NCBI GenBank assembly: GCA_002320815.1
Contig: DCLA01000020.1
Span: 3,497-67,496 of the forward strand
Source of the DNA: Myxococcales bacterium UBA1660
GTDB lineage: Bacteria > Myxococcota_A > Polyangia > Polyangiales > Houyiibacteriaceae
Direction of reading: 5' to 3'
DNA: 64,000 nt
Shown here: piece by piece, positions 44,790 to 61,174 of the stretch
Layout: every line of letters starts with the position of its first letter
How positions within the stretch are numbered: the first letter of the stretch is position 1
Position numbers and translations under genes: made by a program
Notes under the pieces: generated by a model
Told to the model about the DNA's origin: nothing
Database searches by the model: none
What the model saw: the letters and a program-made list of their open reading frames with translations, nothing else

Positions 44790-46184
44790 TCACTTGGGGG
44801 TCGGGTGGGTCATGTCCTTGGGCGTGACCGCGGCGTCGAACTCCTCACCGGTCATGAAGCCCAGGTCCTGCACCGACTCGCGGAGCGTGATGTCCTTCTG
44901 GAAGGCGTTCTTGGCCACCTTGGCGGCCTTGTCGTAGCCGATGTGCGGGTTCAGGGCGGTGACCAGCATGAGCGAGCCGTGGAGGTTCTTCTCGATGGTC
45001 TTGGTCACCGGCTCCAGCCCCCGGACGCAGCGCTCCTCGAAGGAGGCGCAGGCGTCGCCGAGGAGGCGCACCGAGTGCAGGAGCGCGTTGGCCATGACCG
45101 GCTTGTAGACGTTGAGCTCGAAGTTGCCCTGGCTGCCGGCGAAGCCGACGGTGGCGTCGTTCCCGAAGACCTGGCAGCAGACCATGGTCAGCGCCTCGCA
45201 CTGGGTCGGGTTCACCTTGCCGGGCATGATGGAGCTGCCCGGCTCGTTCTCGGGGATGCGGATCTCCCCGATGCCGCAGCGCGGTCCGGAGGCGAGCCAG
45301 CGGACGTCGTTGGCGATCTTCATGCACGCCGCCGCGAGCTGCTTCACCGCGCCGTGGGTCCCCACGAAGGCGTCGTGGGCCGCCAGGGCGGCGAACTTGT
45401 TGGGCGCGGTCACGAAGGCGTGGCCGGTGAGCTCGCCGATGACCTCGGCCACGCGCTCGGCGTAGCCCTCCACCGTGTTGAGCCCGGTGCCGACCGCGGT
45501 GCCGCCGAGGGCCAGCTCGTAGAGCTGGGGCAGCGTGTTCTGGATGGCCCGCATGGCGTGGTCGAGCTGCGAGACCCAACCGCTGATCTCCTGGCCCAGG
45601 GTCAGCGGGGTGGCGTCCTGCAGGTGGGTACGGCCGATCTTGACGATGTCGGTGAAGGCCTTGGCCTTCTCGTCCAGGGTGTCCCGGAGGACCTTCACCT
45701 TGGGGATCATCTCGGCGATGGCCACGACCGCCGCGATGTGCATCGCGGTGGGGAAGGTGTCGTTGCTCGACTGGGAGCGGTTGACGTGGTCGTTGGGGTG
45801 GACCGGCGCCTTACTGCCCATCTCGCCCCCGGCGATCTCGATCGCGCGGTTCGAGATGACCTCGTTGACGTTCATGTTCGACTGGGTGCCCGACCCGGTC
45901 TGCCAGACCACCAGGGGGAAGTGGTCGTCGAGCTTCCCGGCGATGACCTCGTCGGCGGCCTTCACGATGAGGTCGCAGATCTCCGGCTCCAGGTTGCCCA
46001 GCTCGCGGTTGGTCAGCGCCGCGGCCTTCTTGAGCACACCGAAGGCGCGGACGACCTCCAGGGGCATGCGGTCGTCGCCGATGGGGAAGTTCATCTTCGA
46101 GCGGGCCGTTTGCGCCCCGTAGTACCGATCCTTCGGCACCTCGATCTCACCCATGGAGTCCTTCTCGATCCGTACGTCGCTCAT
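44790..46184 (-). CDS. fumC: Class II fumarate hydratase
   Basis: [47 protein letters not shown]. Confidence 0.98.
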
Positions 46185-46287
46185 CGCTGGCATGACCTCC
46201 TGGGCCGCGGCTTACCGCAGGTGGGGGCCGCGGTCCAACGCGCTCGCTTTTCTCGACTTTCGGAGGCCATCGTCTATCTCTGGCCCC

Positions 46288-48990
46288 ATGGCCGGCCTCC
46301 GCCGAACGCTCCCCCTCCTCCTCGCTCTGCTCGCCTTCGCCCCGGTGGCCGAGGCCCAGGACCTGCGCGCCCAGCTCCAGGCGCTCCGGGCGGACCGGCC
46401 CGCCGGGATCCCCGAGGGCACGCTCGTCTCCATCGAGCACCTCCTGGACACCGCGGACCGCATCGAGACCCGCGACTTCGGGGACGAAGCGGCCTCCTGG
46501 CGCCGCCGGGCCGAGCGCTATCTCACGCTCGCCGCCCGGGGCACGGACCCCTACCCCCTGGCCAAGAACGAGATCGTCAACCGCGGCTACCGCTCCGTGG
46601 TCAGCGAGCGGCTCCAGGGGTACGCCATCTACGTCCCCCCGGACTACGACCCCACCAAGTCCTACCCGCTTTACATCGCCCTCCACGGGGGCTCGTCCAA
46701 CGGGAACCTCTTCGTCGGCGTGGTGCTGGGGAACAACATGGACTGGCTGACCTACGACGAGCACCTCTACGACGACTACGTGCCGCGCTGGTCGCCCGAG
46801 TGGATCGTCGTCGCCCCCACCGGCTTCGGGCAGATCATGTGGCGCTGGATGGGCGAGAAAGACGTCCTCGACGTGCTCGACGACGTGCAGCGGCACTACG
46901 CGGTGGACCCCGACCGAGTGGTGCTCGGCGGCCTCAGCAACGGCGGCGTGGGCGCCTACGCCATCGGCATGCGGCACGCCTGGCGCTTCGCGATGGTCCA
47001 GGCGATGGCCGGCGCGCCGAGCTGGGAGCAGTACCTGGGCGGCCGAATGGAGACCGCCGAGCGGCGGGTGGTGCGGCCCTGGAGCGGCATGCACCTGGCC
47101 CAGAACTCGGTGAACACCACCTTCCACTACTACCACGGTCGCACCGACACCGGGCCCATGCGGCCGCGCTACATCGAGGAGTTCACGCGGCACCTGCGGG
47201 GGCTCGACGACGTGCCGGTCAACGAGACCTGGTTCGACGCCGGGCACGACATCCTCTACCGGGTCCATCGGCACGGCCGCATCTACGACCGGCTCGACGC
47301 CACCCGGGACCCGCGACCGGCCGAGGTCCGGGTGGCGACCGGGGACTACCGCGCCGCGCGCCAGCACTGGCTGACGGTGACGCGCATCCGGGACTACCCG
47401 CAGATGGTCGAGATCCGCGGCGCGGTGGCGGGCTCCACGCTGAACCTCACCGACGCCCCGGGCGTGGACGCGGTCAGCCTGGAGATGGCCGACGTGCCGC
47501 TGCCCGCGGGGGACGTGACGGTGAAGGTGGGCCAGGCCGAGGTCTACTCCGGGCCCCGGGCGGCCCTGGGCACCCGGCTCCATCTGACCCGCACCGCCGG
47601 CGGCTGGCGCACCGGCTTCCCGCCCACCGACGGCCTCCGGAAGCGCCCCGGCCTCAGCGGGCCGGTCAGCGACGCCTACTTCGGGCGCATGATCCACGTC
47701 TACGGGACCCGGAACGCCGAGCACACCGAGGACCTCCGGGAGGCCGCCCAGCGGGGCGCCCGGGGTTGGCCCCTGTGGTCCTGGGATCTCAGCCAGCAGG
47801 TGGTCGCCGACACCGAGCTGACCGACGCCATGATGGCCCAGGCCCACGTGGTCCTCTACGGCTCGCCGGGCGACAACGCCGTGCTCGAGCGGATCGCCGG
47901 CGCCCTGCCCATCCGCGTCGAACCCGGCGCGGTCGTCGTGGGCTCGGAGCGCTACGAGGGCGCCGACGTGGGGGTGCGCTTCATCCACCCCAACCCGCTG
48001 GCGCCGCAGCGCTACGTGATCGTCCAGGCGGGCGTGACGCCCCGCGCGGTGAAGAAGGGCAACGAGCTCCCGGAGTTCGTCCCCGACTACCTGGTCTGGG
48101 ACGACCGGACCGTGAGCGGGCCCCAGCGGCGGGTCACCGGGCCCAAGCCGGTCCGCGCGATGGGCTTCTTCGACGACCGGTGGCAGCTCCCCGGCCGGGA
48201 GCGCGCGGCGGCCGAAGGCGCCGGCCCCGACCAGCTCGACGCCGAGGCCGAGACCCCGGAGCCCTCGTTGCCCATCCCGGCCGCCCCCGCGGTCCCCGCC
48301 GCGCCCCGACGCTTTCGGGCCCCGGCCAGCGACCAGGCCGGCCAGGCGGCGCGCCGCATCGCCCGGCTGGTCCCCACCTTCGAGAACTATCGGGCCACCA
48401 TCGGCGGCGCCGAGTGGCGGGTGAAGCGGGCGGCCGAGTGGTCCATCGGACCCACCGACGAGTGCCTCGCCGAGCTGGCCGACACCGGCATCCCGGCCCG
48501 GGCGCGGCCGGAGCCCCACCCCCTCACGCCCAGCGCGGTGGAGATCCTCGGTCCGGTCGACGGCGTGTGGTTCCGGATGACCCACGAGGAGCAACCCTTC
48601 GTGGTGAGCTGCGAGCTGGCGAAGCGGATCCCGGCCATCGTCGCCATCCTGAAGGAGCACGGCGTCCACGGAGTGGAGGTGCTGAGCGCCCACCGCACCT
48701 ACCCGCGGACCAGCTTCCACCGCATGGGCCTCGCGCTGGACCTGATGCGCTTCTGGACCGACGACGGCTGGCTCTCGGTCCAGGAGCACTACGAGGCCAC
48801 CCCGATGCAGGCGACCTGCGGCGGCCCCCGACCGCGGGATCCCCGCGCGCGCACCCTCCGCGCCATCGGCTGCGCTCTCTGGGAGACCGAAGGCTTCGCC
48901 AGCGTGCTCACCCCCAACTACAACGAGGGGCACCGGGACCACTTCCACCTGGACATCCGGCCCGACGATCCTCGGCTCTTCTTGCGCTGA
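46288..48990 (+). CDS. Secreted alpha/beta-hydrolase fused to a C-terminal extensin-like (Zn DD-peptidase clan) domain
   Basis: Signal peptide; LYIALHG, GLSNG nucleophile elbow; C-terminal SCELAKR..SFHRMGLALD..YNEGHRDHFHLD. Confidence 0.75.
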   Translation: MAGLRRTLPLLLALLAFAPVAEAQDLRAQLQALRADRPAGIPEGTLVSIEHLLDTADRIETRDFGDEAASWRRRAERYLTLAARGTDPYPLAKNEIVNRGYRSVVSERLQGYAIYVPPDYDPTKSYPLYIALHGGSSNGNLFVGVVLGNNMDWLTYDEHLYDDYVPRWSPEWIVVAPTGFGQIMWRWMGEKDVLDVLDDVQRHYAVDPDRVVLGGLSNGGVGAYAIGMRHAWRFAMVQAMAGAPSWEQYLGGRMETAERRVVRPWSGMHLAQNSVNTTFHYYHGRTDTGPMRPRYIEEFTRHLRGLDDVPVNETWFDAGHDILYRVHRHGRIYDRLDATRDPRPAEVRVATGDYRAARQHWLTVTRIRDYPQMVEIRGAVAGSTLNLTDAPGVDAVSLEMADVPLPAGDVTVKVGQAEVYSGPRAALGTRLHLTRTAGGWRTGFPPTDGLRKRPGLSGPVSDAYFGRMIHVYGTRNAEHTEDLREAAQRGARGWPLWSWDLSQQVVADTELTDAMMAQAHVVLYGSPGDNAVLERIAGALPIRVEPGAVVVGSERYEGADVGVRFIHPNPLAPQRYVIVQAGVTPRAVKKGNELPEFVPDYLVWDDRTVSGPQRRVTGPKPVRAMGFFDDRWQLPGRERAAAEGAGPDQLDAEAETPEPSLPIPAAPAVPAAPRRFRAPASDQAGQAARRIARLVPTFENYRATIGGAEWRVKRAAEWSIGPTDECLAELADTGIPARARPEPHPLTPSAVEILGPVDGVWFRMTHEEQPFVVSCELAKRIPAIVAILKEHGVHGVEVLSAHRTYPRTSFHRMGLALDLMRFWTDDGWLSVQEHYEATPMQATCGGPRPRDPRARTLRAIGCALWETEGFASVLTPNYNEGHRDHFHLDIRPDDPRLFLR

Positions 48991-49033
48991 AGAGTCTTTG
49001 CGCTTCGGCGCAGGACCGGTACAACGCCCGCCG

Positions 49034-50233
49034 ATGAAGGACGAGACCCGCGAAGCCCTCGAGGCCCTGCGTTCGGCGCTCCAGCTGGACACCGACCTGG
49101 GGGAGGACCCGGTCCAGGCCCTGCGAGCCCTGGCCGCCGACGCCGACGCGATCACCGCGCGCACCTTCGAAGGCGACCCCTACGCCGCCCTGGTGCTGGC
49201 CGACGCCCCGGGCTCGGCCGAGCTCGAGGTCGCCGCCCGCGTCTCCGGACTGGTCCCCTTCGCCACCGAGTGGTGGCAACACACCGTGTTCTACGTGGAC
49301 CAGACCGAGGACCCCGAGGGGAACCACCGGGTCTACGTCCGCGACGAGGACTCGCTGCCGGGCCTGCCCGAGTTCTCGCTGCCTTCCGTCGCCGCGCTGG
49401 CGCGGGGCTGGGCCCAGGCCGCCGGCGGCGACACCGAGGTCGCCTGGGAGCGCCTGGTGGACGACGATTGGGAAGAGGGCCCGACCTCCGGCTCCTTCGT
49501 CCTCGAGACCATGGTGCGCGGCTCGCTCTCGTCCCAGTGGGCGATGGCCGGCGTGGGGGCCTTCATGCCTTCCCGGCCCGAGCTCGCCGATCAGCCGCTG
49601 CCCGTGGGCGCCGACGCCCCCGGCCGGACCCTCTGCCTCCACGCGCTGCGCGTGGTGCGCCTCGCCGGCGAGCTCCCGCTGCCCCAGGACCTGGTCCTGG
49701 CCGCCCTGGCGCCGGAGCACCGGGAATACCTCGAGCACCTCAAGGAGCTCGAGGGCGCCTTCACCGGCGAAGAGCCGCCGGTGGTGGTCGCCGCGTCCAA
49801 GAGCGGCCCCGCGCCGACCAAGAAGGCCGCCAAGGCTTGGCTGAAGAGCTTCGCCGCCATCGAGGTGGCTCCCGAGCCGATGGACCCGCTGGCCGCGCTC
49901 CTCAGCGAGCTGGGCGGCGCCGGCGGCCTCGGTGACGCCCTCGACCTCGAGGACGAGGAGGACGAGAAGCCCGCCGAGCTGACCACCTTCGAGAAGCGGC
50001 TTCGCAACGGAGTCGACGAGGTGATCGCCAGCATGGAAGAGAACGGCGAGCTCGAGGTCATCCGCCGCGACATGCTCCTCGACGAGCTCACCCGGGTGGC
50101 CGAGGACGCACGCAGCCCCAAGCACCTCTTGAAGAAGCTGGTCTACGCCCTCGTGGAGTCCGAGGCGGTCGAGGAGATCTACGTCACCGACGACCAGATC
50201 CACGACGCCTTCAAGGCCAAGCTGGGCCTCTGA
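49034..50233 (+). CDS. Hypothetical acidic multi-domain protein
   Basis: Coding-like ORF; N-terminal VFYVDQ..RVYVRDED beta region, acidic linker, helical C-terminal domain. Confidence 0.7.
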   Translation: MKDETREALEALRSALQLDTDLGEDPVQALRALAADADAITARTFEGDPYAALVLADAPGSAELEVAARVSGLVPFATEWWQHTVFYVDQTEDPEGNHRVYVRDEDSLPGLPEFSLPSVAALARGWAQAAGGDTEVAWERLVDDDWEEGPTSGSFVLETMVRGSLSSQWAMAGVGAFMPSRPELADQPLPVGADAPGRTLCLHALRVVRLAGELPLPQDLVLAALAPEHREYLEHLKELEGAFTGEEPPVVVAASKSGPAPTKKAAKAWLKSFAAIEVAPEPMDPLAALLSELGGAGGLGDALDLEDEEDEKPAELTTFEKRLRNGVDEVIASMEENGELEVIRRDMLLDELTRVAEDARSPKHLLKKLVYALVESEAVEEIYVTDDQIHDAFKAKLGL

Positions 50234-50310
50234 CCGGCTCCGGCGACGGCGCGTCGTCGGGCTCCGTAGAAAACTTGGTCGCCACGCCTACGGCGTGCGA
50301 CGGCCGAGGT

Positions 50311-51957
50311 ATGGGTCGTCTTCGAGCAGGTCTCCTCCCTCTTCTCGTCGGGCTCTTGGGCTGCGACCCGAAGGGCGCCGAAGAGAGCGACGCCCGGGTA
50401 CCCGATGCCCGCGCGCGGGTGGTCGCGATCCCCGCGACCGAGGGCCCGGCGCCCGCGGTGGCGGAGGACCCCCCGGAGGCGCCGCCGACGCCGACGACGG
50501 AGGCCTCCGAGCCCGAGGCGTCGCACGAGCCCGCCCCCGAGGCGGTGGATCCCCGCGCGGCCTTCGACGCGCGCTACCCCAACCACGGGATCACCTTCCA
50601 CTTCCTCGCGCGGGTCCGCGCCGAGCCCAACCAGAGCGCCGACGTCGTGGGCTACATGCGCCGCGGCGCCCGCTTCAGGGCCACCGAGCGGGTCCCCGGC
50701 GTGGGCTGCGCCCGCGGCTGGTTCGAGGTGCCCGGCGACGGCTTCGTCTGCCGCGGCGAGGGCTTCCTCATCGGCAGCGAGCCCCCCAGCTTCGAGCCCA
50801 CGCCGGTGCCCCCCGCGCTGGAAGACGCCCTACCCTACGCCTACGGCTGGGTCCCCCGGGACGACGTCGCCCAGTTCTGGCACCTGCCCACCGAGAGCGA
50901 GGAGCGCGCGGTGGCCGACGTCTTCGCCGGCCTCCGCCGCCAGGCGGAAGCGGCCCCGAGCCCCGAAGTCGCCAGCGAGGGCGAGACCGTGGAGCAGGCC
51001 GCCGTCGACGAGGGCGCGGTCGAGGCCCCGCCGCCGCCGGGAAGCGCCGAGGACGACAGCGCCGAGGACGAAGAACTCGGCGAGGCCGGCAGCTTGGCCC
51101 CGGTGACCGTGGCCCAGGCGAACCCCTTGGAGATCCCCGACTTCGTGCGCCTGCGCATGCGCCGCGGCTTCTACGTGAGCCTCGACCGCGAAGAGGTCGA
51201 CGGGTCGCGGAACTTCTTCCGGACCGTCCGCGGCGCCTACGTCCGCGCCGACGCGGTCGCGCCCAACGAGCCGCCCGACCACCGCGGCGTGGTGCTCGGC
51301 GGTCAGTGGCAGCTCCCCATCGCGTTCGTCTACCGGGGCAACACCAGCCGCCTCCGCCGTGTGGGCACCTCCAACCGCTTCCGCGAGGTGGGCCGCCTGG
51401 ACAAGCACACCCCGCTCCGGGTGCTGGACACCCTCGAGCGCGGCGGCCAGCGCTACGCCATCACCCGCGGCGGCGACCTCGTGCGGGGGACCTCTCTGCG
51501 CTGGGCGGAGCCCATCGAGCGCCCGGAGGACATCGAGGAGGGCGAGCGCTGGATCCACGTCCGGCTGAGCGAGCAGACCGTGGTGGCCTACGAGGGAGAC
51601 ACGCCCATCTTCGCCACCACCGTCAGCACCGGCCGCGCCGGCTTCGAGACCCCGACCGGGCTCTTCCGGGTCCAGTCGAAGCACGTGTCGACCACCATGG
51701 ACGACCTGACCAACCCCGACGAGGCCTACCTCATCGAGGACGTCCCCTGGACCATGTACTTCGAGGGGAACTACGCCCTCCACGCCGCGTTCTGGCACGA
51801 CGGCTTCGGCCGCCAGCGCAGCCACGGCTGCGTGAACCTGGCGCCGGCCGACGCCCGCTGGCTCTTCCGCTGGTCGGGCCCGGAGCTCCCCGCGAGCTGG
51901 CACGGCACCTTCGCCACCCGGAACCGCCGGGGCAGCGCCGTCTACGTCACCGAGTAG
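50311..51957 (+). CDS. L,D-transpeptidase (YkuD family) lipoprotein
   Basis: Lipobox LLGC; WIHVRLSEQT, VSTG, TPTG, VPWTMYF, ALHAAFWH..FG..SHGCVN. Confidence 0.93.
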   Translation: MGRLRAGLLPLLVGLLGCDPKGAEESDARVPDARARVVAIPATEGPAPAVAEDPPEAPPTPTTEASEPEASHEPAPEAVDPRAAFDARYPNHGITFHFLARVRAEPNQSADVVGYMRRGARFRATERVPGVGCARGWFEVPGDGFVCRGEGFLIGSEPPSFEPTPVPPALEDALPYAYGWVPRDDVAQFWHLPTESEERAVADVFAGLRRQAEAAPSPEVASEGETVEQAAVDEGAVEAPPPPGSAEDDSAEDEELGEAGSLAPVTVAQANPLEIPDFVRLRMRRGFYVSLDREEVDGSRNFFRTVRGAYVRADAVAPNEPPDHRGVVLGGQWQLPIAFVYRGNTSRLRRVGTSNRFREVGRLDKHTPLRVLDTLERGGQRYAITRGGDLVRGTSLRWAEPIERPEDIEEGERWIHVRLSEQTVVAYEGDTPIFATTVSTGRAGFETPTGLFRVQSKHVSTTMDDLTNPDEAYLIEDVPWTMYFEGNYALHAAFWHDGFGRQRSHGCVNLAPADARWLFRWSGPELPASWHGTFATRNRRGSAVYVTE

Positions 51958-52003
51958 CGGCTGGCTGCACCGGCTGGCTGCACCGGCTGGCTGCACCGGC
52001 TGG
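51958..52003. repeat. 13-bp tandem repeat cggctggctgcac, three full copies plus a partial
   Basis: Units at 51958, 51971, 51984, partial at 51997. Confidence 0.9.
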
Positions 52004-52026
52004 CGACGCCTGCTACATCGCCGCGG

Positions 52027-54228
52027 ATGCACCCCGCCCGGCCGCAGGTACCCAGCCGTCCCTGCCCGGCGTGCGCCAAGCCGGTCGACCCGCTGCGCGC
52101 GCCGGAGGTGGTCGTCGTGCCCGCCGGCCCGCGCTACCTGTGCAGCGAGGGCTGCCGGCAGCGGTACCTGGAGACGGTGCGCACCCAGGAGTCCCGGCGC
52201 CAGGTGCAGCCCGCCCCGGTCACCGTCCCCCAACGGGTCCGCGACGCCACCCGGCCCTCGATGATCCTGCCCGCGGCGGACGCCAGCACCAGCACCATGC
52301 GGCGCCCCGCGCTGCTCGACGTGGGCGAGACCCCGGTGCCCTGGCCCGCGCTGGTTGCCGCGCTGAGCGCCTTCGCCCTGGCGCTGGTCGCGCGCACCCC
52401 GCTCGTCGGCGGGGTCGCCGCCGTGCTGGTGGCCACCTCGGCAGCGCTCACGCTGCAGCACCACGCCAGCGCGCGTTCGACCATCGGGTGGCTCACCTGG
52501 CTCGCGGGACCGGTCGGCGCGACGCTGACCGCCGCCGGCGGATGGCTCGCCCTCCGCGAGGACTCCACGCACTGGTGGACCCTGGCCGCGTCCGGCCTGG
52601 CCGCCGCCGCGATGGCTCTGCGCGCCCTCCTCGACGCCCGCGGTCGCGAGCCGGTGGCCGACGCCGTGCGCGCGCTCCTGGCGCAGCTCCCGACCCGCGC
52701 CCGCATCCCCGCACGCGACGACGGCGAGACCACCCGCTACGAAGAGGTCCACCTCTCCGAGGTGCGCGCCGGCGAGGTGGTCCTGGTCGTCGAGGGCGAG
52801 ACCCTCGGCGTCGATGGCGTGGTGCAGGCGGGCGAGGCGGACGCGCTCCTGCACCCCGGCGCCCAGACTCCGGAGCACCGCCGCCCCGGCGACTCGCTCC
52901 TGGCCGGAGCCAAGGTCACCCGGGGCGCGCTCCGGGTCCGGGCCACCCGCGTGGGCGCCGAGCGCGCGCTCCAGCGCATCCCGCGCTTCGGTCTCGTCGC
53001 CGGCCGCCGCGCGGCGCGCACGGCCCGCGTCGCCGATCGCATCCAGACCATCGGCGGCGCCGTCGCCGTGGCCGGGGCCTTGGCCGGCGCGCTCCTGCTC
53101 ACGGGCAACCCCGGTCTGGCGGGCGCGCTGACCGCAGGCGGCGCGGTGCTCCTCGCGGCCCCGCTCCTGGCCGCCCGCCGCGCCGCCGAGTCGCCCTTCG
53201 TGGCCGCCGCCGCCAGCGCCGCCAGCCGGGGCATCGTCTTCAGCGACGCGCGCACCCTGGACGCCGCGGGGCGGGTGTCCACCGCGGCCCTCTGCACCAC
53301 CGGCACCGTCACCGTGGGGCACCCCGAGGTGGTCGAGGTGACCCCCATCGGCGACGCCGACGTCGACGCGCTGCTGGGCATGGTCGCCGGCACCTGCGCC
53401 AAGGTGGAGGTCCCCGAAGCCCGCGGCATCCGCCGGTACACCCGCGCCCACATGATCGAGCCGCGCCTCGTCCGGCGGGTCGTACGGCATCCGGGCCGCG
53501 GCGTGACGGCGTTCGTCCCCGGCAGCGAGGGCCTGGTGGTCGGGAACCGGCAGCTCCTGCTGGACGAGGGCATCAGCGTGGCCGTCGCCGACGCCGCCGC
53601 GATGCGCGCAGAAGAGCGGGGCGAGACGGCGGTCTTCGTCGGCCTGGGCGGCCGGGTCCGCGCGGTCCTGGCCCTCCGCGACGAGGTTCGCCCCGGCGCG
53701 CGCGCCGCGGTCCAGCGCATGTTCGACCAGCAGATCGAGGTGGTCCTGGTCTCGGGTGACCACCGCGCCACCGTCGAGGCTCTGGCGAGCACCCTGGACG
53801 TCCAGAACGTCAAAGCCGAGCTGGTCCCCGACGAGCAGCGCGACGCCGTCCGCGCCCTGACCGGCGCCGGCGAAGACGTCGCCGCCGTCGGCTTCGCCCC
53901 CCAGGACGCCGAGGTCCTCGGCGCCGCCGGCGTCCCCATCGTCCTCGCCGCCGCCGGCGGCGCGCAGGGCGAACGCGGCATCGCCCTCGCCACCGATGAC
54001 GTCCGCGACGCCGCCGCCGCCCTGTGGATCGCCCGCGCCGCCCGCACCGAAGCCTGGCGCGGCGTCCTCCTCGCCACCGGCGCCGGCAGCCTCCTCATGG
54101 CCGCCGCCGCCCTCGGCTGGGCCGGCCCCGCCGTCGCCGCCCTCGGCGCCCTGGCCATCGACGCCCACACCCTCCTCGGCGGCCCCCGCCTCCTCCACCG
54201 CGTCGCCCTCCGCATCCCGCTCCGCTGA
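52027..54228 (+). CDS. Degenerate P1B-type ATPase homologue (predicted pseudo-ATPase) with N-terminal TRASH/YHS-like metal-binding domain
   Basis: P1B layout (CPAC..LCSEGC, TMs, A, N and P domains) but DKTGT is CTTGT, TGE is PGA, CPC is absent, GDGxND is GFAPQD. Confidence 0.8.
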   Translation: MHPARPQVPSRPCPACAKPVDPLRAPEVVVVPAGPRYLCSEGCRQRYLETVRTQESRRQVQPAPVTVPQRVRDATRPSMILPAADASTSTMRRPALLDVGETPVPWPALVAALSAFALALVARTPLVGGVAAVLVATSAALTLQHHASARSTIGWLTWLAGPVGATLTAAGGWLALREDSTHWWTLAASGLAAAAMALRALLDARGREPVADAVRALLAQLPTRARIPARDDGETTRYEEVHLSEVRAGEVVLVVEGETLGVDGVVQAGEADALLHPGAQTPEHRRPGDSLLAGAKVTRGALRVRATRVGAERALQRIPRFGLVAGRRAARTARVADRIQTIGGAVAVAGALAGALLLTGNPGLAGALTAGGAVLLAAPLLAARRAAESPFVAAAASAASRGIVFSDARTLDAAGRVSTAALCTTGTVTVGHPEVVEVTPIGDADVDALLGMVAGTCAKVEVPEARGIRRYTRAHMIEPRLVRRVVRHPGRGVTAFVPGSEGLVVGNRQLLLDEGISVAVADAAAMRAEERGETAVFVGLGGRVRAVLALRDEVRPGARAAVQRMFDQQIEVVLVSGDHRATVEALASTLDVQNVKAELVPDEQRDAVRALTGAGEDVAAVGFAPQDAEVLGAAGVPIVLAAAGGAQGERGIALATDDVRDAAAALWIARAARTEAWRGVLLATGAGSLLMAAAALGWAGPAVAALGALAIDAHTLLGGPRLLHRVALRIPLR

Positions 54229-54229
54229 A

Positions 54230-54294
54230 GCGAAACGCGCTGGCGAAACGCGCTGGCGAAACGCGCCGGCGGAACGCGCTGGCGCAACGCGCGG
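54230..54294. repeat. 13-bp tandem repeat gcgaaacgcgctg, five diverging copies
   Basis: Units at 54230, 54243, 54256, 54269, 54282. Confidence 0.9.
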
Positions 54295-54304
54295 GCCACC
54301 CCAT

Positions 54305-54501
54305 GTTCGGCGACGACGACCGGCAGGACAGCCCCTCGCAAACCCGATGCGCAAGTTGGCAAGTGCGTCCCCAAAGCAAGTCGGGGCGTGCTGCACCCCC
54401 ACGTTCGGCGACGACGACCCGACGAGGGCCCATCGAAGACGAAGCGCGCGACCCGATGCGCAAGTTGGCAAGTGCGTCCCCAAAGCAAGTCGGGGCGTGC
54501 T
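54305..54501. repeat. Composite A-spacer-B-A-spacer-B intergenic repeat
   Basis: A = gttcggcgacgacgacc at 54305 and 54403; B = identical 51-mer acccgatgcgcaagttggcaagtgcgtccccaaagcaagtcggggcgtgct at 54342-54392 and 54451-54501. Confidence 0.9.
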
Positions 54502-54540
54502 CCTCGCGGGGGGAGGCGGCAGGTGCTACCACCGCGCGCG

Positions 54541-55986
<1,446 letters not shown>

Positions 55987-55987
55987 G

Positions 55988-57265
55988 ATGAGCCTGCCCA
56001 GCGAAGCCTTCGCCTACGCCGACGGCGTCCTGACTACCAGCGGCGTGGACCTGCGCGCCGTCGCCGAGGCCCACGGGACCCCGACGTGGGTCTACTCCGG
56101 TGAGCGGGTCGACGCCGCGTACCGTTCGATCACCGAAGCCATGGCCCAGGCGAGTGGCGGCAGCGAGACCCTCATCGCCTACGCCATCAAGGCCAACGGC
56201 AACCAGGCGCTCCTGAAGCGCCTGGCGGCCCTCGGCTGCGGCGCGGACATCGTCAGCGGCGGCGAGCTCCTCCGCGCGCTACGCGCGGGGATCCCGGCGG
56301 AGCGCATCGTCTACAGCGGCGTCGGGAAGTCCCGCGCCGAGCTCCGGCTGGCGCTCGAGAAGGGCATCCGCGCCGTCCACGTGGAGAGCGAGAGCGAGCT
56401 CCGGCTCCTGGGAGAGGTCGCCGCGGACCTCGGCACCACCGCGACCATCGCGCTCCGCGTGAACCCCAACGTGGACGCCGAGACCCACCCCTACATCGCC
56501 ACCGGGCTCCACTCGACCAAGTTCGGCCTGGAGCTGGACGTGGCCGAGCGGCTGGTCCCCGAGATCGTGGGCGACGACCGCTTCCACCTCGACGGCGTGA
56601 GCTGCCACATCGGGTCCCAGCTCGGGTCCGTCGACCCGCTGCGCGAAGCGGTCACCCTCCTGGCCCAGTTCGCGCTCCAGTGCCGCGAGCTCGGCGCGCC
56701 CATCCGCTCCCTCGACGTGGGCGGCGGTTGGCCCCTCACCTACGGCAACGAGAAGGCCCCCTACCCCGCCGACGCCGCCTTCGGCGCCGCCATCGCCGAA
56801 GGCCTCGAGGCCGCCGGCGCCCGCGACTTCGACCTCATCACCGAGCCCGGCCGGGCGCTCGTCGGCGACGCGGGCGCGCTGCTGACCTCGGTGCTCGCGA
56901 TCAAGGACCAGGGCGGCAAGCGCTTCGTGATCCTCGACGGCGCGATGACCGAGCTCATCCGCCCCAGCCTCTACCAGGCGTACCACGCCATCGTGCCCGT
57001 CGTGGCCCCCGAGGGCCCCACCCGGGAGACCGACCTGGTGGGCCCGGTCTGCGAGTCCGGCGACTTCTTCGCGCGCAGCCGCCCCTTCCCCGAGGTCCGC
57101 GAGGGCGACCTGGTCGCCGTGCTCGGCGCCGGCGCCTACGGCCGGGAGATGGCCAGCTCCTACAACGCGCGCCCCCGCGCCGCCGAGGTCCTCTGCGAGG
57201 CCGGGAGCGCCTCCCTCGTGCGCCGCCGGGGTGACGTCGAGAGCCTCTGGGCCGGCGAGGACTGA
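55988..57265 (+). CDS. lysA: Diaminopimelate decarboxylase
   Basis: YAIKAN, DIVSGGEL, YSGVGK, SKFG, HIGSQL, EPGR, GPVCESGD, GAYG..YN. Confidence 0.96.
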   Translation: MSLPSEAFAYADGVLTTSGVDLRAVAEAHGTPTWVYSGERVDAAYRSITEAMAQASGGSETLIAYAIKANGNQALLKRLAALGCGADIVSGGELLRALRAGIPAERIVYSGVGKSRAELRLALEKGIRAVHVESESELRLLGEVAADLGTTATIALRVNPNVDAETHPYIATGLHSTKFGLELDVAERLVPEIVGDDRFHLDGVSCHIGSQLGSVDPLREAVTLLAQFALQCRELGAPIRSLDVGGGWPLTYGNEKAPYPADAAFGAAIAEGLEAAGARDFDLITEPGRALVGDAGALLTSVLAIKDQGGKRFVILDGAMTELIRPSLYQAYHAIVPVVAPEGPTRETDLVGPVCESGDFFARSRPFPEVREGDLVAVLGAGAYGREMASSYNARPRAAEVLCEAGSASLVRRRGDVESLWAGED

Positions 57266-58304: not shown

Positions 58305-60080
58305 TCAGTGCACGGCGTCGGAGGTGGCGCCGCTGGCCCAGAGCCCGGTGCGCATGCCCTGCATGCGGGTCTCGACCTCTTCGAGACGCGCGAGGGTCAT
58401 GCCCACGTCGCCGGCCAGCTTGGTCTGCGCCGCGGCGCCCGAGCTCTTGGCCTCCCGGGCGGTGCGCACCAGCTCGGCGATGGACCGGCTCATCTCCTCG
58501 TTCGCGCGGGTGACGAAGTCGATCAGGCGCTCGCCGAACTCGTCGATGCGCTCGTCGAAGGCGTCCGCCATCTTCTTGGCGGCGTCGATGACCACCTTCG
58601 GGGCCTCTTCCTTCGCGCGCTCCTTGACCTGCTTGTCGGCGCGGCCCCGGAAGACCAGCGCGAGCACCGGCGCCGCGAGGGCCAGCGCGCCGCCGACCAG
58701 CACGTTGGAGAGCACCATCAGGGTCACGCCGAAGGCGCCGACGGCGAAGACGCCCACGTCGTAGGCGAAGGTGTTCACGTCGAGGTCGAGCTCGGTGGAG
58801 TCGTCCCCCAGCACCGCGCGCAGATGCTCCGCCCGGGCCGAGGCGTCTTCGGTCACGAAGGCGATGGCCTCTTCGGCCACCTTCTCCAGGCGCGTCGCGA
58901 TGGCCTCGGCCTGCTCCTCGGCGAGGTTCTTGAACTTCTCCTCGATGAAGCCGCCGAGGTGCTTCCGCAGATCCTTGGCGTCGCTCTGCTCGATCTCCCC
59001 GGGGAGCTGGTCGGCGAAGCGACGGGCGAAGCCCTCGACGTCGGCGCGGACCACCGCCTTGACCGCGCTGACCGACTCGCGGATGCGCGCCTTGCGCTCG
59101 CTCATCCGCTCGGCGCTCTGCTCGAGGTCTTCCTCGAGGGTCTTCAGGCGCCGCTCCAGCTCGGCCTGGTCCATCGCCAGGGCCCGCTTCTGGACCTCGA
59201 TACCGGTCTTGAGCGTCGCCGCGGTGCGGATGCCGTCCCCGAGCGCGTTGTCGAGGAGGACTCGGCCGCGCTCGTCGCGCAGGAAGGTGCGCAGATGCTC
59301 GACCAGCTCGTCCATGCCGGAGGTGCTCCGGTCGCCCTCGAGGGCCTGCTCGGCGCTCACGCCGAAGACGATGGGGTCGGCCATCAGCTTGCCCAGGTTG
59401 AGCCGGGCGTAGGCCAGGGCCTCCTCGCGCTCCTCGTCGTCGAGGATGTCCATCTTGTTCACGACGAAGACGACCTTGTCGCGCGACTGGGCGAGGAGCT
59501 TGCTGGCCACGAAGGCCCGCTCGGACTCCTTGAGGATCTGTCCGGCGTCCAGGAGGAACAGGATGGCGTCCGAGCGCGGGATGTAGCCGTAGGTGATCTC
59601 GGCCCGCGCCTCGTTGATGTCGTTCACGCCCGGCGTGTCCACCAGGACCACGCCCTCCTCGAGGAAGGGCGCGGGGTACTTCACGTCCAGGTGCTTCACC
59701 GCGTCGGCCTGGGCCGCTCCGCCGACCTCGTACTGCTCGAGCTCGCCGATGGCGACGTCCTTCTCCCCCGCGTCGCCGACCGCCTTGGCGGTCTGGGTCT
59801 CGCCGTGGGCCACGTGGTGGATCACCGCGGTGGTCGGCGTGACGCCCATGGGCAGGAGCGGCGCGCCGAGGAGCGCGTTCACGAAGGTCGTCTTGCCGTG
59901 GTTGAACTCCCCGAGGACCACCAGGTGGAAGCGCTCGTCGCGCAGCCGCGGGATCCGGTCGTCGCGCAGCTTGCGCGCCAGGGACTTGGCTCCGGCCTCG
60001 TCGGCCAGCGCCGCCACGTCCCGGAGGCTCCGTAGCGCCTGCTGCTTCAGCTCGCCGTAGCGGCTCGTCGTCTCGCTCAT
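58305..60080 (-). CDS. Bacterial dynamin-like GTPase (BDLP / mitofusin-like)
   Basis: G1 GEFNHGKTT, G2 PTT, G3 DTPG, G4 NKMD; coiled-coil stalk; hydrophobic paddle VGVFAVGAFGVTLMVLSNVLVGGALALAAPVLALVF. Confidence 0.92.
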   Translation of the reverse strand: MSETTSRYGELKQQALRSLRDVAALADEAGAKSLARKLRDDRIPRLRDERFHLVVLGEFNHGKTTFVNALLGAPLLPMGVTPTTAVIHHVAHGETQTAKAVGDAGEKDVAIGELEQYEVGGAAQADAVKHLDVKYPAPFLEEGVVLVDTPGVNDINEARAEITYGYIPRSDAILFLLDAGQILKESERAFVASKLLAQSRDKVVFVVNKMDILDDEEREEALAYARLNLGKLMADPIVFGVSAEQALEGDRSTSGMDELVEHLRTFLRDERGRVLLDNALGDGIRTAATLKTGIEVQKRALAMDQAELERRLKTLEEDLEQSAERMSERKARIRESVSAVKAVVRADVEGFARRFADQLPGEIEQSDAKDLRKHLGGFIEEKFKNLAEEQAEAIATRLEKVAEEAIAFVTEDASARAEHLRAVLGDDSTELDLDVNTFAYDVGVFAVGAFGVTLMVLSNVLVGGALALAAPVLALVFRGRADKQVKERAKEEAPKVVIDAAKKMADAFDERIDEFGERLIDFVTRANEEMSRSIAELVRTAREAKSSGAAAQTKLAGDVGMTLARLEEVETRMQGMRTGLWASGATSDAVH

Positions 60081-61012
60081 TCGCTTCCCTTCTCGGTGTC
60101 GTCGGCGACGGGGAGCTCCCCCGGCATCTCGCCCTTGGCGTTGATCTTTACGATGTCGGTGGTCCGCTCGTCGACCGTCTTCAGGTCCAGCCCGTCCTGC
60201 CCGAGGCCGACGGCCTTGCGGTAGTAGGCGCTCTCCCCGAAGACCCGCAGCGCGGCGATGCGCTTGGGTAGCGCGGGGTGCGAGTCGAAGATCTCGGTGA
60301 AGCGCCCGACGCCCTTCCGGGCCTCCTCGAGCTGGTCCATATAGGCCTCGACGTCGATGGCGTCGTAGTGCTTGGTGGAACCGGAGGCCATCTTCACGAA
60401 GGTCCGCTCGGCGACCCCGATGTCCCCGCAGCAGAGCGCGCCGGCGCGGTCGCAGGTGATCTCCGCGCGGCGGGACCAGGTGCGCAACGCGGCCTGCACC
60501 ACCGGCTGCAGGGGTCGCAGGATCGCCGGGAGCTGCGAGAGGAGGAGCATGGTGGTCAGGTAGACCACGTGGCCGTTCTGGATGTGGCCCATCTCGTGGC
60601 CGATGACGAAGCGCAGCTCGTCTTCGGTGAAGTGATCCACCAGCTTCGAGTGGACCACGATGAACGAGTCCTCCTGGGTCCCGAAGGTGAAGGCGTTCAT
60701 CACCGGGCTGTTGGAGATGTAGAGGGCCGGCATCGCGATGCCCAGGACGTCGGCGCATTCCTTGGCCAGGGCGTGGACCTGGGGGAGCTGGCGCGGACCG
60801 ACCTTGAGAGAGTTGGCGATGAAGCGATGCTGGAAGAGGTGCTTCTGGCCGCGGACCAACGAGGCCACCACCAGCTTCAGCGGACGGAACTTGTCGAACC
60901 CGCGGAGCATGGTGAGGTCCGGACCGAAGGCGTAGCGGGTCTCCTCGGCCATGCCGCCGAGGGCTCCGCTCTCGCGCTTGCTGACGTATGCGTCGAAGCT
61001 GAATTCGCTCAC
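60077..61012 (-). CDS. M48 (HtpX/Ste24/OMA1-like) zinc metallopeptidase
   Basis: NAFTFG, ELRFVIGHEMGH, WSRRAEITCDRAG, SHP..RI; ATGA overlap with the dynamin start. Confidence 0.9.
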   Translation of the reverse strand: MSEFSFDAYVSKRESGALGGMAEETRYAFGPDLTMLRGFDKFRPLKLVVASLVRGQKHLFQHRFIANSLKVGPRQLPQVHALAKECADVLGIAMPALYISNSPVMNAFTFGTQEDSFIVVHSKLVDHFTEDELRFVIGHEMGHIQNGHVVYLTTMLLLSQLPAILRPLQPVVQAALRTWSRRAEITCDRAGALCCGDIGVAERTFVKMASGSTKHYDAIDVEAYMDQLEEARKGVGRFTEIFDSHPALPKRIAALRVFGESAYYRKAVGLGQDGLDLKTVDERTTDIVKINAKGEMPGELPVADDTEKGSE

Positions 61013-61174
61013 TGGACCTCCATGCCCCCGGCTCGGGAGCCACGCGAGAACAGTAGGCCTGGGGCTCGGGCGTGACAACGGTGCACGCGAACCCAACGGC
61101 TCGGCGCCCCCCGCGATTCCACCGACCGCCGCGGAGGATGACTATGTCGTCACGTTCTGGTAGGCGGGCAGGCC

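What the first reader, a model, noticed from the sequence alone, without database searches (positions are those of the whole stretch)
52027..54228. Full-length but catalytically dead P1B-ATPase homologue
Seen: a 733-aa uninterrupted ORF with P1B architecture in which every catalytic hallmark is replaced. The phospho-acceptor DKTGT is CTTGT (codon TGC at 53293, several base changes, so not a single sequencing error); A-domain TGE is PGA; the transmembrane CPC is AAP; the N-domain HP is lost; TGDN is SGDH; GDGxND is GFAPQD. The N-terminal CxxC..C-x3-C metal-binding domain and scaffold motifs (GRGV, GNRQLL, LRDEVRPGA) are kept. Established: the Asp of DKTGT is essential for P-type catalysis. Inference: a pseudo-enzyme kept as a metal sensor, scaffold or regulator of an active pump; a decaying pseudogene in a GC-rich genome could also stay open, so selection needs testing.
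Basis: partly seen in the sequence, partly recalled or inferred. Interest (0 to 1): 0.7.

Follow-up and report, generated by a model that had tools for sequence, protein, structure and literature searches.

The report
Conserved dead copper-pump homologue
This gene encodes a full-length relative of bacterial copper-exporting P-type ATPases that cannot pump because its catalytic residues are gone, yet it is kept under strong selection across one order of myxobacteria, almost always next to arginine-biosynthesis genes, so it is a repurposed "pseudo-pump" and not a broken gene.

Summary
ORF 52027-54228 (+), 733 aa, has the P1B-ATPase fold (AlphaFold pLDDT 92.8; best structural match CopA). It lacks the phospho-Asp (CTTGT), the TGE Glu (PGA), the CPC cysteines (AAPL) and the first Asp of GDGxND. 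Two details were overstated. SGDH lies within normal P1B variation. Only the His of HP is lost.

It is neither an error nor decay. Two independent metagenomes carry the identical gene, and a strain variant differs by 16 synonymous and 3 conservative changes. dN/dS is 0.04 between two congeners and 0.22 against the window, similar to fumC, argH and lysA.

None of 264 family sequences has the catalytic Asp or Glu. The family forms one clade (support 100) beside CPC-type copper pumps. I found it only in Polyangiales (Sandaracinaceae, Polyangiaceae).

Lost motifs were replaced by new conserved ones, such as C-x-[RH]-G-T and G-[RH]-x3-D. The gene abuts argH-lysA (median gap about 2 bp). In a divergent lineage it follows argD or argF.

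Best reading: a non-catalytic membrane protein tied to arginine and lysine biosynthesis, acting as a sensor, regulator or scaffold. Its exact role is unknown. I found no literature on it, though this scan has met the family twice before. The window's genus has also lost the family's own nucleotide-pocket residues.

The parts
52027..54228 (+). Pseudo-P1B-ATPase gene (733 aa plus stop)
   Evidence: ORF and translation. Pfam PF00122 and PF00702. GC3 0.95. AlphaFold pLDDT 92.8, and Foldseek best hit CopA 7r0g.
52057..52197 (+). N-terminal TRASH-like Cys4 zinc ribbon (residues about 11-57; C13, C16, C39, C43)
   Evidence: The pattern C-x2-C-x21/22-C-x3-C occurs in 171 of 214 full-length family members; the rest have truncated start calls. 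Pfam hits to TRASH_HVO_1752_C, DUF7576 and zf-FCS are below threshold. The model shows two beta-hairpins plus a helix at pLDDT above 90.
52198..52326 (+). Disordered linker (residues about 58-100)
   Evidence: pLDDT 46-60 in the AlphaFold model.
52327..52683 (+). Transmembrane helices MA, MB, M1 and M2 (residues about 101-219)
   Evidence: Helices 106-120, 125-153, 155-178 and 183-219 in the model. G154, W158, P162 and G164 are conserved. The Met/Glu/Asp residues of the copper entry site are absent.
52684..53001 (+). A (actuator) domain; the TGE loop is replaced by H-P-G-A (residues 276-279, nt 52852-52863)
   Evidence: Alignment to CopA. Family column 279 is Ala in 194 and Ser in 32 sequences, never Glu.
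53017..53223 (+). M3-M4; the CPC metal site is replaced by A-A-P-L (residues 377-380)
   Evidence: The kink Pro is kept in 196 of 264 sequences and the cysteines are absent.
53293..53307 (+). Former phosphorylation motif, now CTTGT (C423 replaces the phospho-Asp)
   Evidence: The DNA reads tgc acc acc ggc acc. The family column is Cys 161, Ser 40, Ala 20, Arg 10 and never Asp.
53323..53676 (+). N (nucleotide-binding) domain. G490-x-G492 is kept. E457 becomes Cys and H462 becomes Val in this genus only.
53677..54000 (+). P domain, second half. It carries SGDH (576-579), Q604 at the HAD motif III Lys position, and GFAPQD (622-627).
54001..54225 (+). M5, M6 and a C-terminal helix; conserved Asp712 in M6
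   Evidence: Helices 659-695, 701-715 and 718-729. D712 is conserved in 90% of alignment A1 and is D or E in 162 of 264 sequences.
54230..54505 (.). Repeat block inserted between the pseudo-pump and argH. It stretches a normally 0-40 bp junction to about 310 bp.
   Evidence: A 13-bp unit is repeated 5.2 times at 54230-54296. Two identical 47-mers lie at 54346-54392 and 54455-54501. Metagenome depth over these bins is 460-900x (one 464x), against 10-60x within the gene. The junction has a median of about 2 bp in other genomes.
54541..55986 (+). argH (argininosuccinate lyase), the conserved downstream partner
   Evidence: TIGR00838 scores 614 bits. Synteny is shown.
55988..57265 (+). lysA (diaminopimelate decarboxylase), third gene of the conserved unit
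   Evidence: TIGR01048 scores 452 bits. Synteny is shown.

Best explanation
The gene encodes a real, expressed, membrane-embedded pseudo-enzyme. It descends from a CPC-type (Cu+) P1B-ATPase and keeps the whole pump architecture: a Cys4 zinc ribbon, eight transmembrane helices, and A, P and N domains.

Shown from sequence. It has lost the aspartyl-phosphate acceptor, the dephosphorylation Glu, the Mg2+-binding Asp and the transmembrane metal ligands. It therefore cannot run the E1P/E2P cycle or pump metal.

Shown. The loss happened once, at the base of a clade confined to Polyangiales. The protein has since been kept under strong purifying selection. New conserved motifs replaced the old ones: [HYF]-P-G-A, A-P-L, C-x-[RH]-G-T, P-x-E-R and G-[RH]-x3-D.

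Inferred. It works by binding or conformational signalling, or as a membrane scaffold, and not by catalysis. Its role is tied to the arginine and lysine biosynthesis operon in which it sits, either as the first gene of X-argH-lysA or just after argD/argF. In most of the family the rebuilt P/N cleft probably still binds a nucleotide or another anion. That cleft keeps the adenine-site Glu and His and the G-x-G motif, and Arg/His take the place of the acidic Mg2+-site residues.

The window's own genus has lost those pocket residues as well (C457, V462, T425, Q604, F623), yet stays under omega = 0.04. So in this genus the retained function most likely rests on the scaffold, the membrane domain or the zinc ribbon.
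For: Fold and homology
- Pfam, NCBIfam and PDB sequence matches.
- AlphaFold pLDDT 92.8 and pTM 0.85. The Foldseek best hit is CopA in the E1 state, TM-score 0.66/0.73.

Catalytic residues are absent family-wide
- 0 of 143 new 50%-identity representatives have DKTG[TS].
- Column counts over 264 sequences confirm the losses.
- 24 genome-derived members from five GTDB families lack the motifs.
- All 36 myxobacterial loci lack DKTGT, while all 33 non-myxobacterial hits in which a full-length ORF was read, and two further partial ones, have it.

Selection
- dN/dS is 0.04 between two congeners, and 0.00-0.09 in every domain.
- dN/dS is 0.225 against the window, compared with fumC 0.216, argH 0.202, lysA 0.271 and ykuD 0.247.
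- A strain variant shows 16 synonymous and 3 conservative changes.
- There are no internal stops in 29 relatives, each with a single copy.
- 29 columns are invariant, many of them family-specific charged residues: R483, R484, E529, R559, Q563, D567.

The sequence is real
- Identical contigs occur in two independent metagenomes, and three exact contigs lie inside the gene in a metatranscriptome.

Single origin
- The family is one clade with SH-aLRT 100 on a stem of 0.89, grouped with CopA/FixI-type CPC pumps at support 97.

Link to arginine biosynthesis
- argH-lysA lies co-directionally downstream in 25 of 36 loci and divergently upstream in 6 of 36.
- The median stop-to-start gap is about 2 bp.
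- In the deeply divergent f17 lineage, argD (TIGR00707) lies directly upstream in 4 of 5 loci and argF (TIGR00658) in 1 of 5.

Genus-specific second loss
- The window's genus alone lacks all five pocket residues together. All 9 of its departures from 131 conserved family positions fall in the N and P domains.
Against: - No experiment exists, and the function is inferred only from sequence and neighbourhood.
- Much of the argH adjacency within Sandaracinaceae is inherited as part of a larger syntenic block (fumC, esterase/extensin-like, YkuD, X, argH, lysA). It therefore counts as few independent events. The argD/argF and argH contexts could both descend from one ancestral operon.
- No DNA-binding or signalling output domain is present.
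- Nucleotide or anion binding in the rebuilt pocket is untested, and the window's genus lacks those residues.
- The metatranscriptome evidence is thin: three short contigs, and DNA carry-over is possible.
- The AlphaFold conformation (E1-like) carries little weight.
Confidence: 0.6

Rival explanations
1. Metal sensor, metallochaperone or regulator of an active P1B pump. The Cys4 TRASH-like ribbon would bind Cu or Zn, and the dead body would relay this signal or dock onto a working pump.
For: - The four cysteines are nearly universal.
- The family descends from Cu+-type pumps, some of which have YHS/TRASH N-termini.
- The MB/M1 'platform' glycines and proline are conserved.
- One locus (L028) has a Fur-like gene immediately downstream.
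- An earlier scan note reports metal-regulator neighbours in another lineage; I did not verify this.
Against: - About 60 loci show no active pump, chaperone or metal-resistance gene next to it.
- A Fur-like neighbour appears in only 1 locus.
- All transmembrane metal ligands are gone.
- A Cys4 ribbon is as likely to be a structural Zn site.
- The constant neighbours are arg and lys genes.
Confidence: 0.15
2. It is still a transporter, but an uncoupled one. The membrane domain would act as a passive carrier or channel, or be driven by a partner protein. It might move a cationic metabolite of the pathway, such as arginine, ornithine or lysine.
For: - The membrane helices are as constrained as the soluble domains (omega 0.04-0.05).
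- The M4 helix-breaking Pro is kept in 196 of 264 sequences, and an Asp/Glu in M6 in 162 of 264.
- Membrane proteins inside amino-acid biosynthesis operons are often exporters or importers (general knowledge).
Against: - The helices are almost pure Ala/Gly/Leu, with no conserved polar pathway.
- The M6 Asp is missing from the divergent f17/f16 lineages.
- No P-type ATPase is known to carry amino acids, and polyamine-carrying P5B pumps need the full catalytic cycle.
Confidence: 0.1
3. It has an alternative catalytic chemistry. This could be a Cys-based phosphatase or phosphotransfer at C423, or ATP hydrolysis without a phosphoenzyme intermediate.
For: - Cys occupies the former Asp position in 161 of 264 sequences.
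- Most members keep the N-domain adenine-site residues and G-x-G.
Against: - The position is also Ser, Ala, Arg, Gly, Met and others, so no nucleophile is conserved.
- The Mg2+-binding Asp of GDGxND and the Lys of DKTGT are gone.
- The window's genus lacks the nucleotide-site Glu and His as well.
Confidence: 0.05
4. It is a decaying pseudogene that stays open by chance in a GC-rich genome, or a sequencing or assembly error.
For: Long spurious ORFs are common in this 72% GC window.
Against: - dN/dS is 0.04-0.22.
- A natural strain variant shows 16 synonymous and 3 non-synonymous differences.
- There are 264 homologues without stops, sharing 29 invariant columns.
- Identical sequence occurs in independent metagenomes.
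- GC3 is 0.95.
Confidence: 0.02

Closest known systems
P1B-1 Cu(I)-exporting P-type ATPases (CopA of Archaeoglobus fulgidus 7r0g/3j09, Legionella pneumophila 3rfu; human ATP7A/B)
   Same: - Homologous over residues 188-695 (E 2e-44).
- Same eight-helix membrane domain and A, P and N domains (TM-score 0.66/0.73 to 7r0g).
- The N-domain G-x-G, the S/T-G-D motif, the last Asp of GDGxND and the GNRxLL motif are kept.
- The family is sister to CPC-type pumps in the tree.
- Some CopAs, including this genome's own, carry YHS/TRASH-type N-termini.
   Different: - It has no phospho-Asp, no TGE Glu, no CPC cysteines, no Mg2+-site Asp and no Lys of DKTGT.
- It scores below the curated TIGR01525 cut-off.
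- Arg/His occupy former catalytic positions.
- It sits in arg/lys operons rather than cop operons.
- It is not a member in the functional sense.
Pseudoenzymes in general (pseudokinases, pseudophosphatases such as the myotubularin-related dead phosphatases, degenerate ABC nucleotide sites)
   Same: It is an enzyme fold retained under purifying selection after loss of the catalytic residues. The lost motifs are replaced by new conserved ones, and ligand binding is probably retained in most members.
   Different: I found no pseudo-P-type ATPase family described in the searchable literature. Here a whole multi-domain membrane pump is dead, not a soluble domain.
Transceptors and trigger transporters (yeast Snf3/Rgt2 and Ssy1; bacterial UhpC, and LysP acting on CadC)
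   Same: This is a conceptual analogue. These are transporter homologues that no longer transport, or need not transport, and that signal nutrient status. Some of them signal amino-acid status.
   Different: They have an unrelated fold (MFS/APC). No signalling output or partner has been shown for this protein. The resemblance is an analogy from my own knowledge, not a tested similarity.
P4-ATPase-like domains fused to apicomplexan guanylate cyclases
   Same: A P-type ATPase body is used as a regulatory or sensing module and not as an autonomous pump (my own knowledge).
   Different: Those are eukaryotic, belong to the P4 subfamily and are fused to a cyclase output. Several retain the catalytic Asp. 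The protein here is a stand-alone bacterial P1B derivative.

Membership tests
Functional P1B-type heavy-metal P-type ATPase (TIGR01525) | Phosphorylated Asp in DKTGT | tested here: not met
   The window reads CTTGT. Asp is absent in all 264 family sequences.
Functional P1B-type heavy-metal P-type ATPase (TIGR01525) | A-domain (T/S)GE dephosphorylation loop | tested here: not met
   The window reads PGA. The Glu column is Ala 194 and Ser 32, never Glu.
Functional P1B-type heavy-metal P-type ATPase (TIGR01525) | M4 metal-binding (C/S/T)P(C/H) motif | tested here: not met
   The window reads A-A-P-L. The Pro is kept and the Cys/Ser/His ligands are absent.
Functional P1B-type heavy-metal P-type ATPase (TIGR01525) | HAD motif IV GDGxND (Mg2+ ligands) and motif III Lys | tested here: not met
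   The window reads GFAPQD. The first Asp is replaced by Phe here and by Arg/His in 181 of 264 sequences. The motif III Lys is replaced by Gln here and by Arg in 230 of 264.
Functional P1B-type heavy-metal P-type ATPase (TIGR01525) | Curated HMM score cut-off | tested here: not met
   228.9 bits against a cut-off of 346.25. The genome's own canonical pumps score 622 and 591.5 bits.
Functional P1B-type heavy-metal P-type ATPase (TIGR01525) | ATP-driven metal transport and phosphoenzyme formation | not testable with these tools
   This needs biochemistry.
P-type ATPase superfamily (by descent and fold) | E1-E2_ATPase and HAD-type P/N domains with an 8-helix P1B membrane topology | tested here: met
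   PF00122 at 54 bits and PF00702 at 48 bits, both above cut-off. AlphaFold and Foldseek place it with CopA, ZntA, ATP7B and KdpB at probability 1.00.
TRASH / YHS-type zinc ribbon | C-x2-C-x19-22-C-x3-C cysteine pattern | tested here: met
   The window has C13-x2-C16-x22-C39-x3-C43. The pattern occurs in 171 of 214 full-length members, with a spacing of 21 in 161 of them.
TRASH / YHS-type zinc ribbon | Significant match to a curated domain model | tested here: inconclusive
   Only sub-threshold hits were found: TRASH_HVO_1752_C at 14-19 bits against a cut-off of 27, and zf-FCS at 15-17 against 22.4. One member reaches 27.7 against 27 on DUF7576. The window's own N-terminus gives nothing at E <= 0.01.
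Pseudoenzyme | Homologue of an enzyme lacking essential catalytic residues | tested here: met
Pseudoenzyme | Maintained by purifying selection across species | tested here: met
   Omega is 0.04 and 0.225. A strain variant has 16 synonymous and 3 non-synonymous SNPs. The gene is intact in 29 of 41 relatives.
Pseudoenzyme | Expressed | tested here: inconclusive
   Three exact contigs of 169-181 bp lie inside the gene in one marine metatranscriptome. DNA carry-over cannot be excluded.
Pseudogene | Frame disruption or neutral evolution (omega near 1) | tested here: not met
   No stops occur in any homologue, and omega is far below 1.

The most novel reading that the evidence does not exclude
This would be the first described family of pseudo-P-type ATPases: a pump scaffold turned into a membrane receptor or organiser for amino-acid biosynthesis. 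In most members the rebuilt P/N cleft would bind a nucleotide or a pathway anion without turnover. In that cleft Arg/His replace the acidic Mg2+-site residues, and the adenine-site Glu/His are kept. Binding would switch the A/P/N head between E1-like and E2-like poses. That switch would control or tether ArgH, LysA and ArgD/F, or a neighbouring Ser/Thr kinase in the Polyangiaceae-like lineage. The window's genus would be a further step, in which ligand sensing was lost and only the scaffold role remains.
Probability: 0.25. Interest if true: 0.85.

Novelty: new variant of a known kind. Interest (0 to 1): 0.65.

Why it matters
P-type ATPases are defined by their aspartyl-phosphate intermediate. 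A large, ancient and strongly conserved clade that keeps the whole machine while discarding that chemistry raises two questions. What else can this scaffold do? And which parts of the fold have value apart from pumping?

The family offers a natural experiment at three stages. Canonical pumps have full catalysis. The family consensus has lost catalysis but kept a nucleotide-type pocket. The window's genus has lost the pocket too.

The work also corrects database annotation. These proteins are currently named 'cation-translocating P-type ATPase', 'Cu+-exporting ATPase' or 'HAD family hydrolase'. Those names would inflate metal-resistance gene counts in myxobacterial and marine metagenome surveys.

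The tight linkage to argH-lysA and argD/argF points to an unrecognised membrane component of arginine and lysine metabolism in Polyangiales.

Tried and rejected
- **Literature.** Three full-text searches and one review scan found no description of a P-type ATPase family lacking the phospho-Asp.
- **Domain fusions.** I checked whether longer family members (839-916 aa) carry extra informative domains. Pfam finds only the two ATPase domains and a weak TRASH hit.
- **Fur or metal-regulator neighbours.** An earlier scan note suggested these. A tblastn search with E. coli Fur found one hit (L028) in about 95 loci.
- **Promoter and terminator scan around the gene.** No sigma-70-like site was found, and only two weak minus-strand terminator-like hairpins inside the repeat block. 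This was uninformative at 72% GC.
- **Divergent target/argH intergenic regions.** These show back-to-back TTGAC-like boxes but no obvious ARG box. I did not pursue this.
- **Ungapped codon comparison of the window with its congeners.** It gave meaningless omega values above 1 in two segments, because indels shift the alignment. I used the gapped alignment and the indel-free congener pair instead.
- **YN00 estimates.** These failed numerically, so only NG86 values are reported. At GC3 of 0.95, NG86 probably overestimates omega.
- **The look-up of encoding contigs.** It found no record for the Sandaracinus amylolyticus protein P0077.
Full report
**1. The observation**

The ORF at 52027-54228 (+) is open for 733 codons. 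In a window of 72% GC this proves little, because the antisense strand has a 1217-codon open frame. The frame nevertheless looks like a real gene, with GC3 of 0.95 and GC2 of 0.58.

Pfam finds E1-E2_ATPase and the HAD-type Hydrolase domain. NCBIfam's heavy-metal P-type ATPase model TIGR01525 matches end to end at only 228.9 bits, below its 346-bit cut-off.

The best solved relatives are the copper pumps of A. fulgidus (E 2e-44) and L. pneumophila.
- SGE becomes PGA.
- CPC becomes AAPL.
- DKTGT becomes CTTGT.
- EHP becomes EVP.
- GDGIND becomes GFAPQD.

The DNA at 53293 reads tgc acc acc ggc acc.

Two corrections are needed. SGDH is normal P1B variation, since this genome's working pumps read TGDS, TGDH and SGDR. 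Only the His of HP is lost.

**2. Not an artefact and not decay**

Two marine metagenomes from different studies each hold an identical 2382-bp contig covering the gene. A metatranscriptome holds three exact fragments inside it.

A 2023 seawater metagenome carries a strain variant with 19 differences inside the gene. Sixteen are synonymous. The three others are Gly to Ala, Val to Ile and Ala to Gly. By my own binomial estimate, assuming 30% of random changes are synonymous, this has a probability of roughly 1e-6 under neutrality.

Against the congener at 79% identity, NG86 dN/dS is 0.225. That sits beside fumC 0.216, argH 0.202, lysA 0.271 and ykuD 0.247. Between two congeners that align without indels, dN is 0.029 and dS is 0.728, so omega is 0.04. 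It is 0.00-0.09 in every domain, including the membrane helices and the 'dead' P domain.

**3. A large family in which every member is dead**
- A word-indexed search found 276 clusters at 40-79% identity and the same length. They come from Sandaracinaceae, Polyangiales and 'Myxococcota' MAGs and from Sandaracinus amylolyticus.
- A profile search of 1.84 billion representatives listed 150 clusters at 50% identity, scoring 335-946 bits. None of the 143 new ones has DKTG[TS].
- Over 264 sequences the phospho-Asp column is Cys 161, Ser 40, Ala 20, Arg 10 and never Asp. The TGE Glu column is Ala 194, Ser 32 and never Glu. The CPC cysteines are absent.
- Whole-genome searches found one intact copy in 29 of 41 relatives. 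In an even sample of 301 genomes of the phylum, 32 had a match, all in the window's own order. That run scored only three candidates per genome.
- A scan of GTDB species genomes gave 36 myxobacterial loci without DKTGT. It also gave 35 hits from other phyla with DKTGT, 33 of them read as full-length ORFs.
- A maximum-likelihood tree puts the family in one clade (SH-aLRT 100, stem length 0.89). It is grouped at 97 with CPC-type CopA/FixI pumps.

This points to one loss event in a Cu(I)-pump lineage.

**4. What replaced the catalytic site**

The lost motifs did not drift. They were replaced by new conserved ones:
- TGE became [HYF]-P-[GS]-A.
- CPC became A-P-L, with the Pro kept in 196 of 264 sequences.
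- DKTGT became C-x-[RH]-G-T, with Arg 128 and His 82 at the third position.
- The motif III Lys became Arg in 230 sequences.
- GDGxND became G-[RH]-x3-D, with Arg 113 and His 68 at the second position and the last Asp kept in 247.
- S/T-G-D is kept.

In the N domain, the adenine-site Glu (211 of 264), His (177), Pro (216) and G-x-G (about 255) are mostly kept.

Twenty-nine columns are invariant. They include family-specific charged residues R483, R484, E529, R559, Q563 and D567.

The membrane helices are Ala/Gly/Leu-rich with no metal ligands. One Asp in M6 is kept in 150 of 264 sequences.

AlphaFold with the family alignment gives a confident model (pLDDT 92.8, pTM 0.85). It shows a zinc-ribbon N-terminus, a disordered linker, eight helices and A, P and N domains. 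The model superposes best on E1-state structures: CopA 7r0g at TM 0.66/0.73, ATP7B D1027A at 0.62-0.64 and KdpB E1-ATP at about 0.58. E2P states give 0.35-0.40. I give this conformational preference little weight.

**5. The window's genus is one step further along**

P0001-P0003 are the only family members that lack all five pocket residues together: C457, V462, T425, Q604 and F623. All nine of their departures from 131 family-conserved positions lie in the N and P domains, between residues 452 and 630.

The gene is nevertheless under omega = 0.04 within this genus. Whatever the rebuilt cleft does in other members, it seems dispensable here. The scaffold, the membrane domain and the ribbon remain constrained.

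**6. Genomic context**

In the window the gene order is:
- fumC (minus strand)
- esterase/extensin-like
- a hypothetical gene
- YkuD L,D-transpeptidase
- X (this gene)
- argH
- lysA
- a PA14-domain protein (minus strand)
- a dynamin-like gene (minus strand)

Across 36 species-level loci, argH-lysA follows co-directionally in 25 and lies divergently upstream in 6. The estimated gap between the stop of X and the start of argH has a median of about 2 bp. That suggests co-transcription and perhaps translational coupling. In the window the gap is about 310 bp because a repeat block has been inserted.

In the most divergent lineage (f17, 35-39% identity), argH is not adjacent. Instead argD lies directly upstream in four of five loci and argF in the fifth. 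Both identifications are above NCBIfam cut-offs. A large Ser/Thr kinase follows in three of the five.

No active pump, copper chaperone or metal-resistance gene is adjacent in any locus. A Fur-like gene follows X in one locus.

The genome has three canonical P1B pumps elsewhere: a CopA-like CPC type, a P1B-4-like SPC type and a FixI-like type.

**7. Interpretation**

Shown:
- This is a real, selected, non-phosphorylatable P1B-ATPase derivative.
- It has a single origin.
- It was found only in Polyangiales.

Inferred:
- It cannot pump, so it acts by binding, conformational change or scaffolding.
- Its role is connected with the arginine and lysine operon.

The metal-sensor and pump-regulator idea is not excluded, but it lacks contextual support. 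I judge an uncoupled transporter or an alternative chemistry unlikely, for the reasons given under the rival explanations.

**8. Novelty**

I found no paper describing such a family. Databases name these proteins as pumps or HAD hydrolases.

Earlier notes from this scan (e1-2103398 and e1-3857020) reached the same reading for the family in two other genomes. I reproduced their main claims independently but do not count them as evidence. New in this report is the concerted second loss of the pocket residues in the window's genus.

**9. Limits**

The family's outer boundary within the class, the location of the other arg genes in this genome and the copy number of the intergenic repeat are therefore untested.

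Noticed in passing
window 54230-54505: The pseudo-pump/argH junction holds a 13-bp tandem array (GCGAAACGCGCTG, 5.2 copies). It is followed by two identical 47-mers at 54346-54392 and 54455-54501. Metagenome contig depth over these bins is 460-900x, against 10-60x within the gene. This suggests a multi-copy REP/MITE-like element. Orthologous junctions in other genomes are only 0-40 bp.
   Followed up: partly
window 51958-52004: A perfect 13-bp tandem repeat (CGGCTGGCTGCAC, 3.6 copies) fills the 69-bp gap between the ykuD stop and the pseudo-pump start. A strain in another metagenome lacks exactly one 13-bp unit, so this is a length polymorphism.
   Followed up: partly
window 44790-51957: A block is syntenic across several Sandaracinaceae/Polyangiales genomes. 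It comprises fumC (minus strand), a 945-aa esterase plus extensin-like C-terminal protein, a 411-aa protein with no family match, and an SH3 plus YkuD L,D-transpeptidase. fumC lies close to argH, whose by-product is fumarate.
   Followed up: partly
window 50830-54483 (-) and 50295-53759 (+): Very long spurious ORFs of 1217 and 1154 aa overlap the real genes, as is typical of 72% GC DNA. ORF length is not evidence of coding in this window.
   Followed up: yes
L026, L027, L037 (divergent family members): In the f17 lineage the pseudo-pump is followed by a 940-1390-aa Ser/Thr protein kinase. In L027 the kinase has a C-terminal DUF4388 domain. An RlmI-like PUA methyltransferase and argD lie upstream.
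   Followed up: partly
L028 3596-4021 (-): A Fur-family regulator gene lies immediately downstream of the pseudo-pump in one f17 genome, followed by a penicillin amidase gene. It was not seen in any other locus examined.
   Followed up: partly
L001, L002, L003 (other contigs of the window's genome): The genome has three canonical P1B pumps. One is CopA-like with several YHS/TRASH-type N-terminal repeats and CPC. One has SPC plus HEGST (P1B-4-like) with a His-rich N-terminus. One is FixI/CcoI-like with CPC.
   Followed up: partly
window 58305-61043 (-): A large dynamin-family GTPase gene lies near lysA. It is conserved there in at least three related genomes.
   Followed up: no
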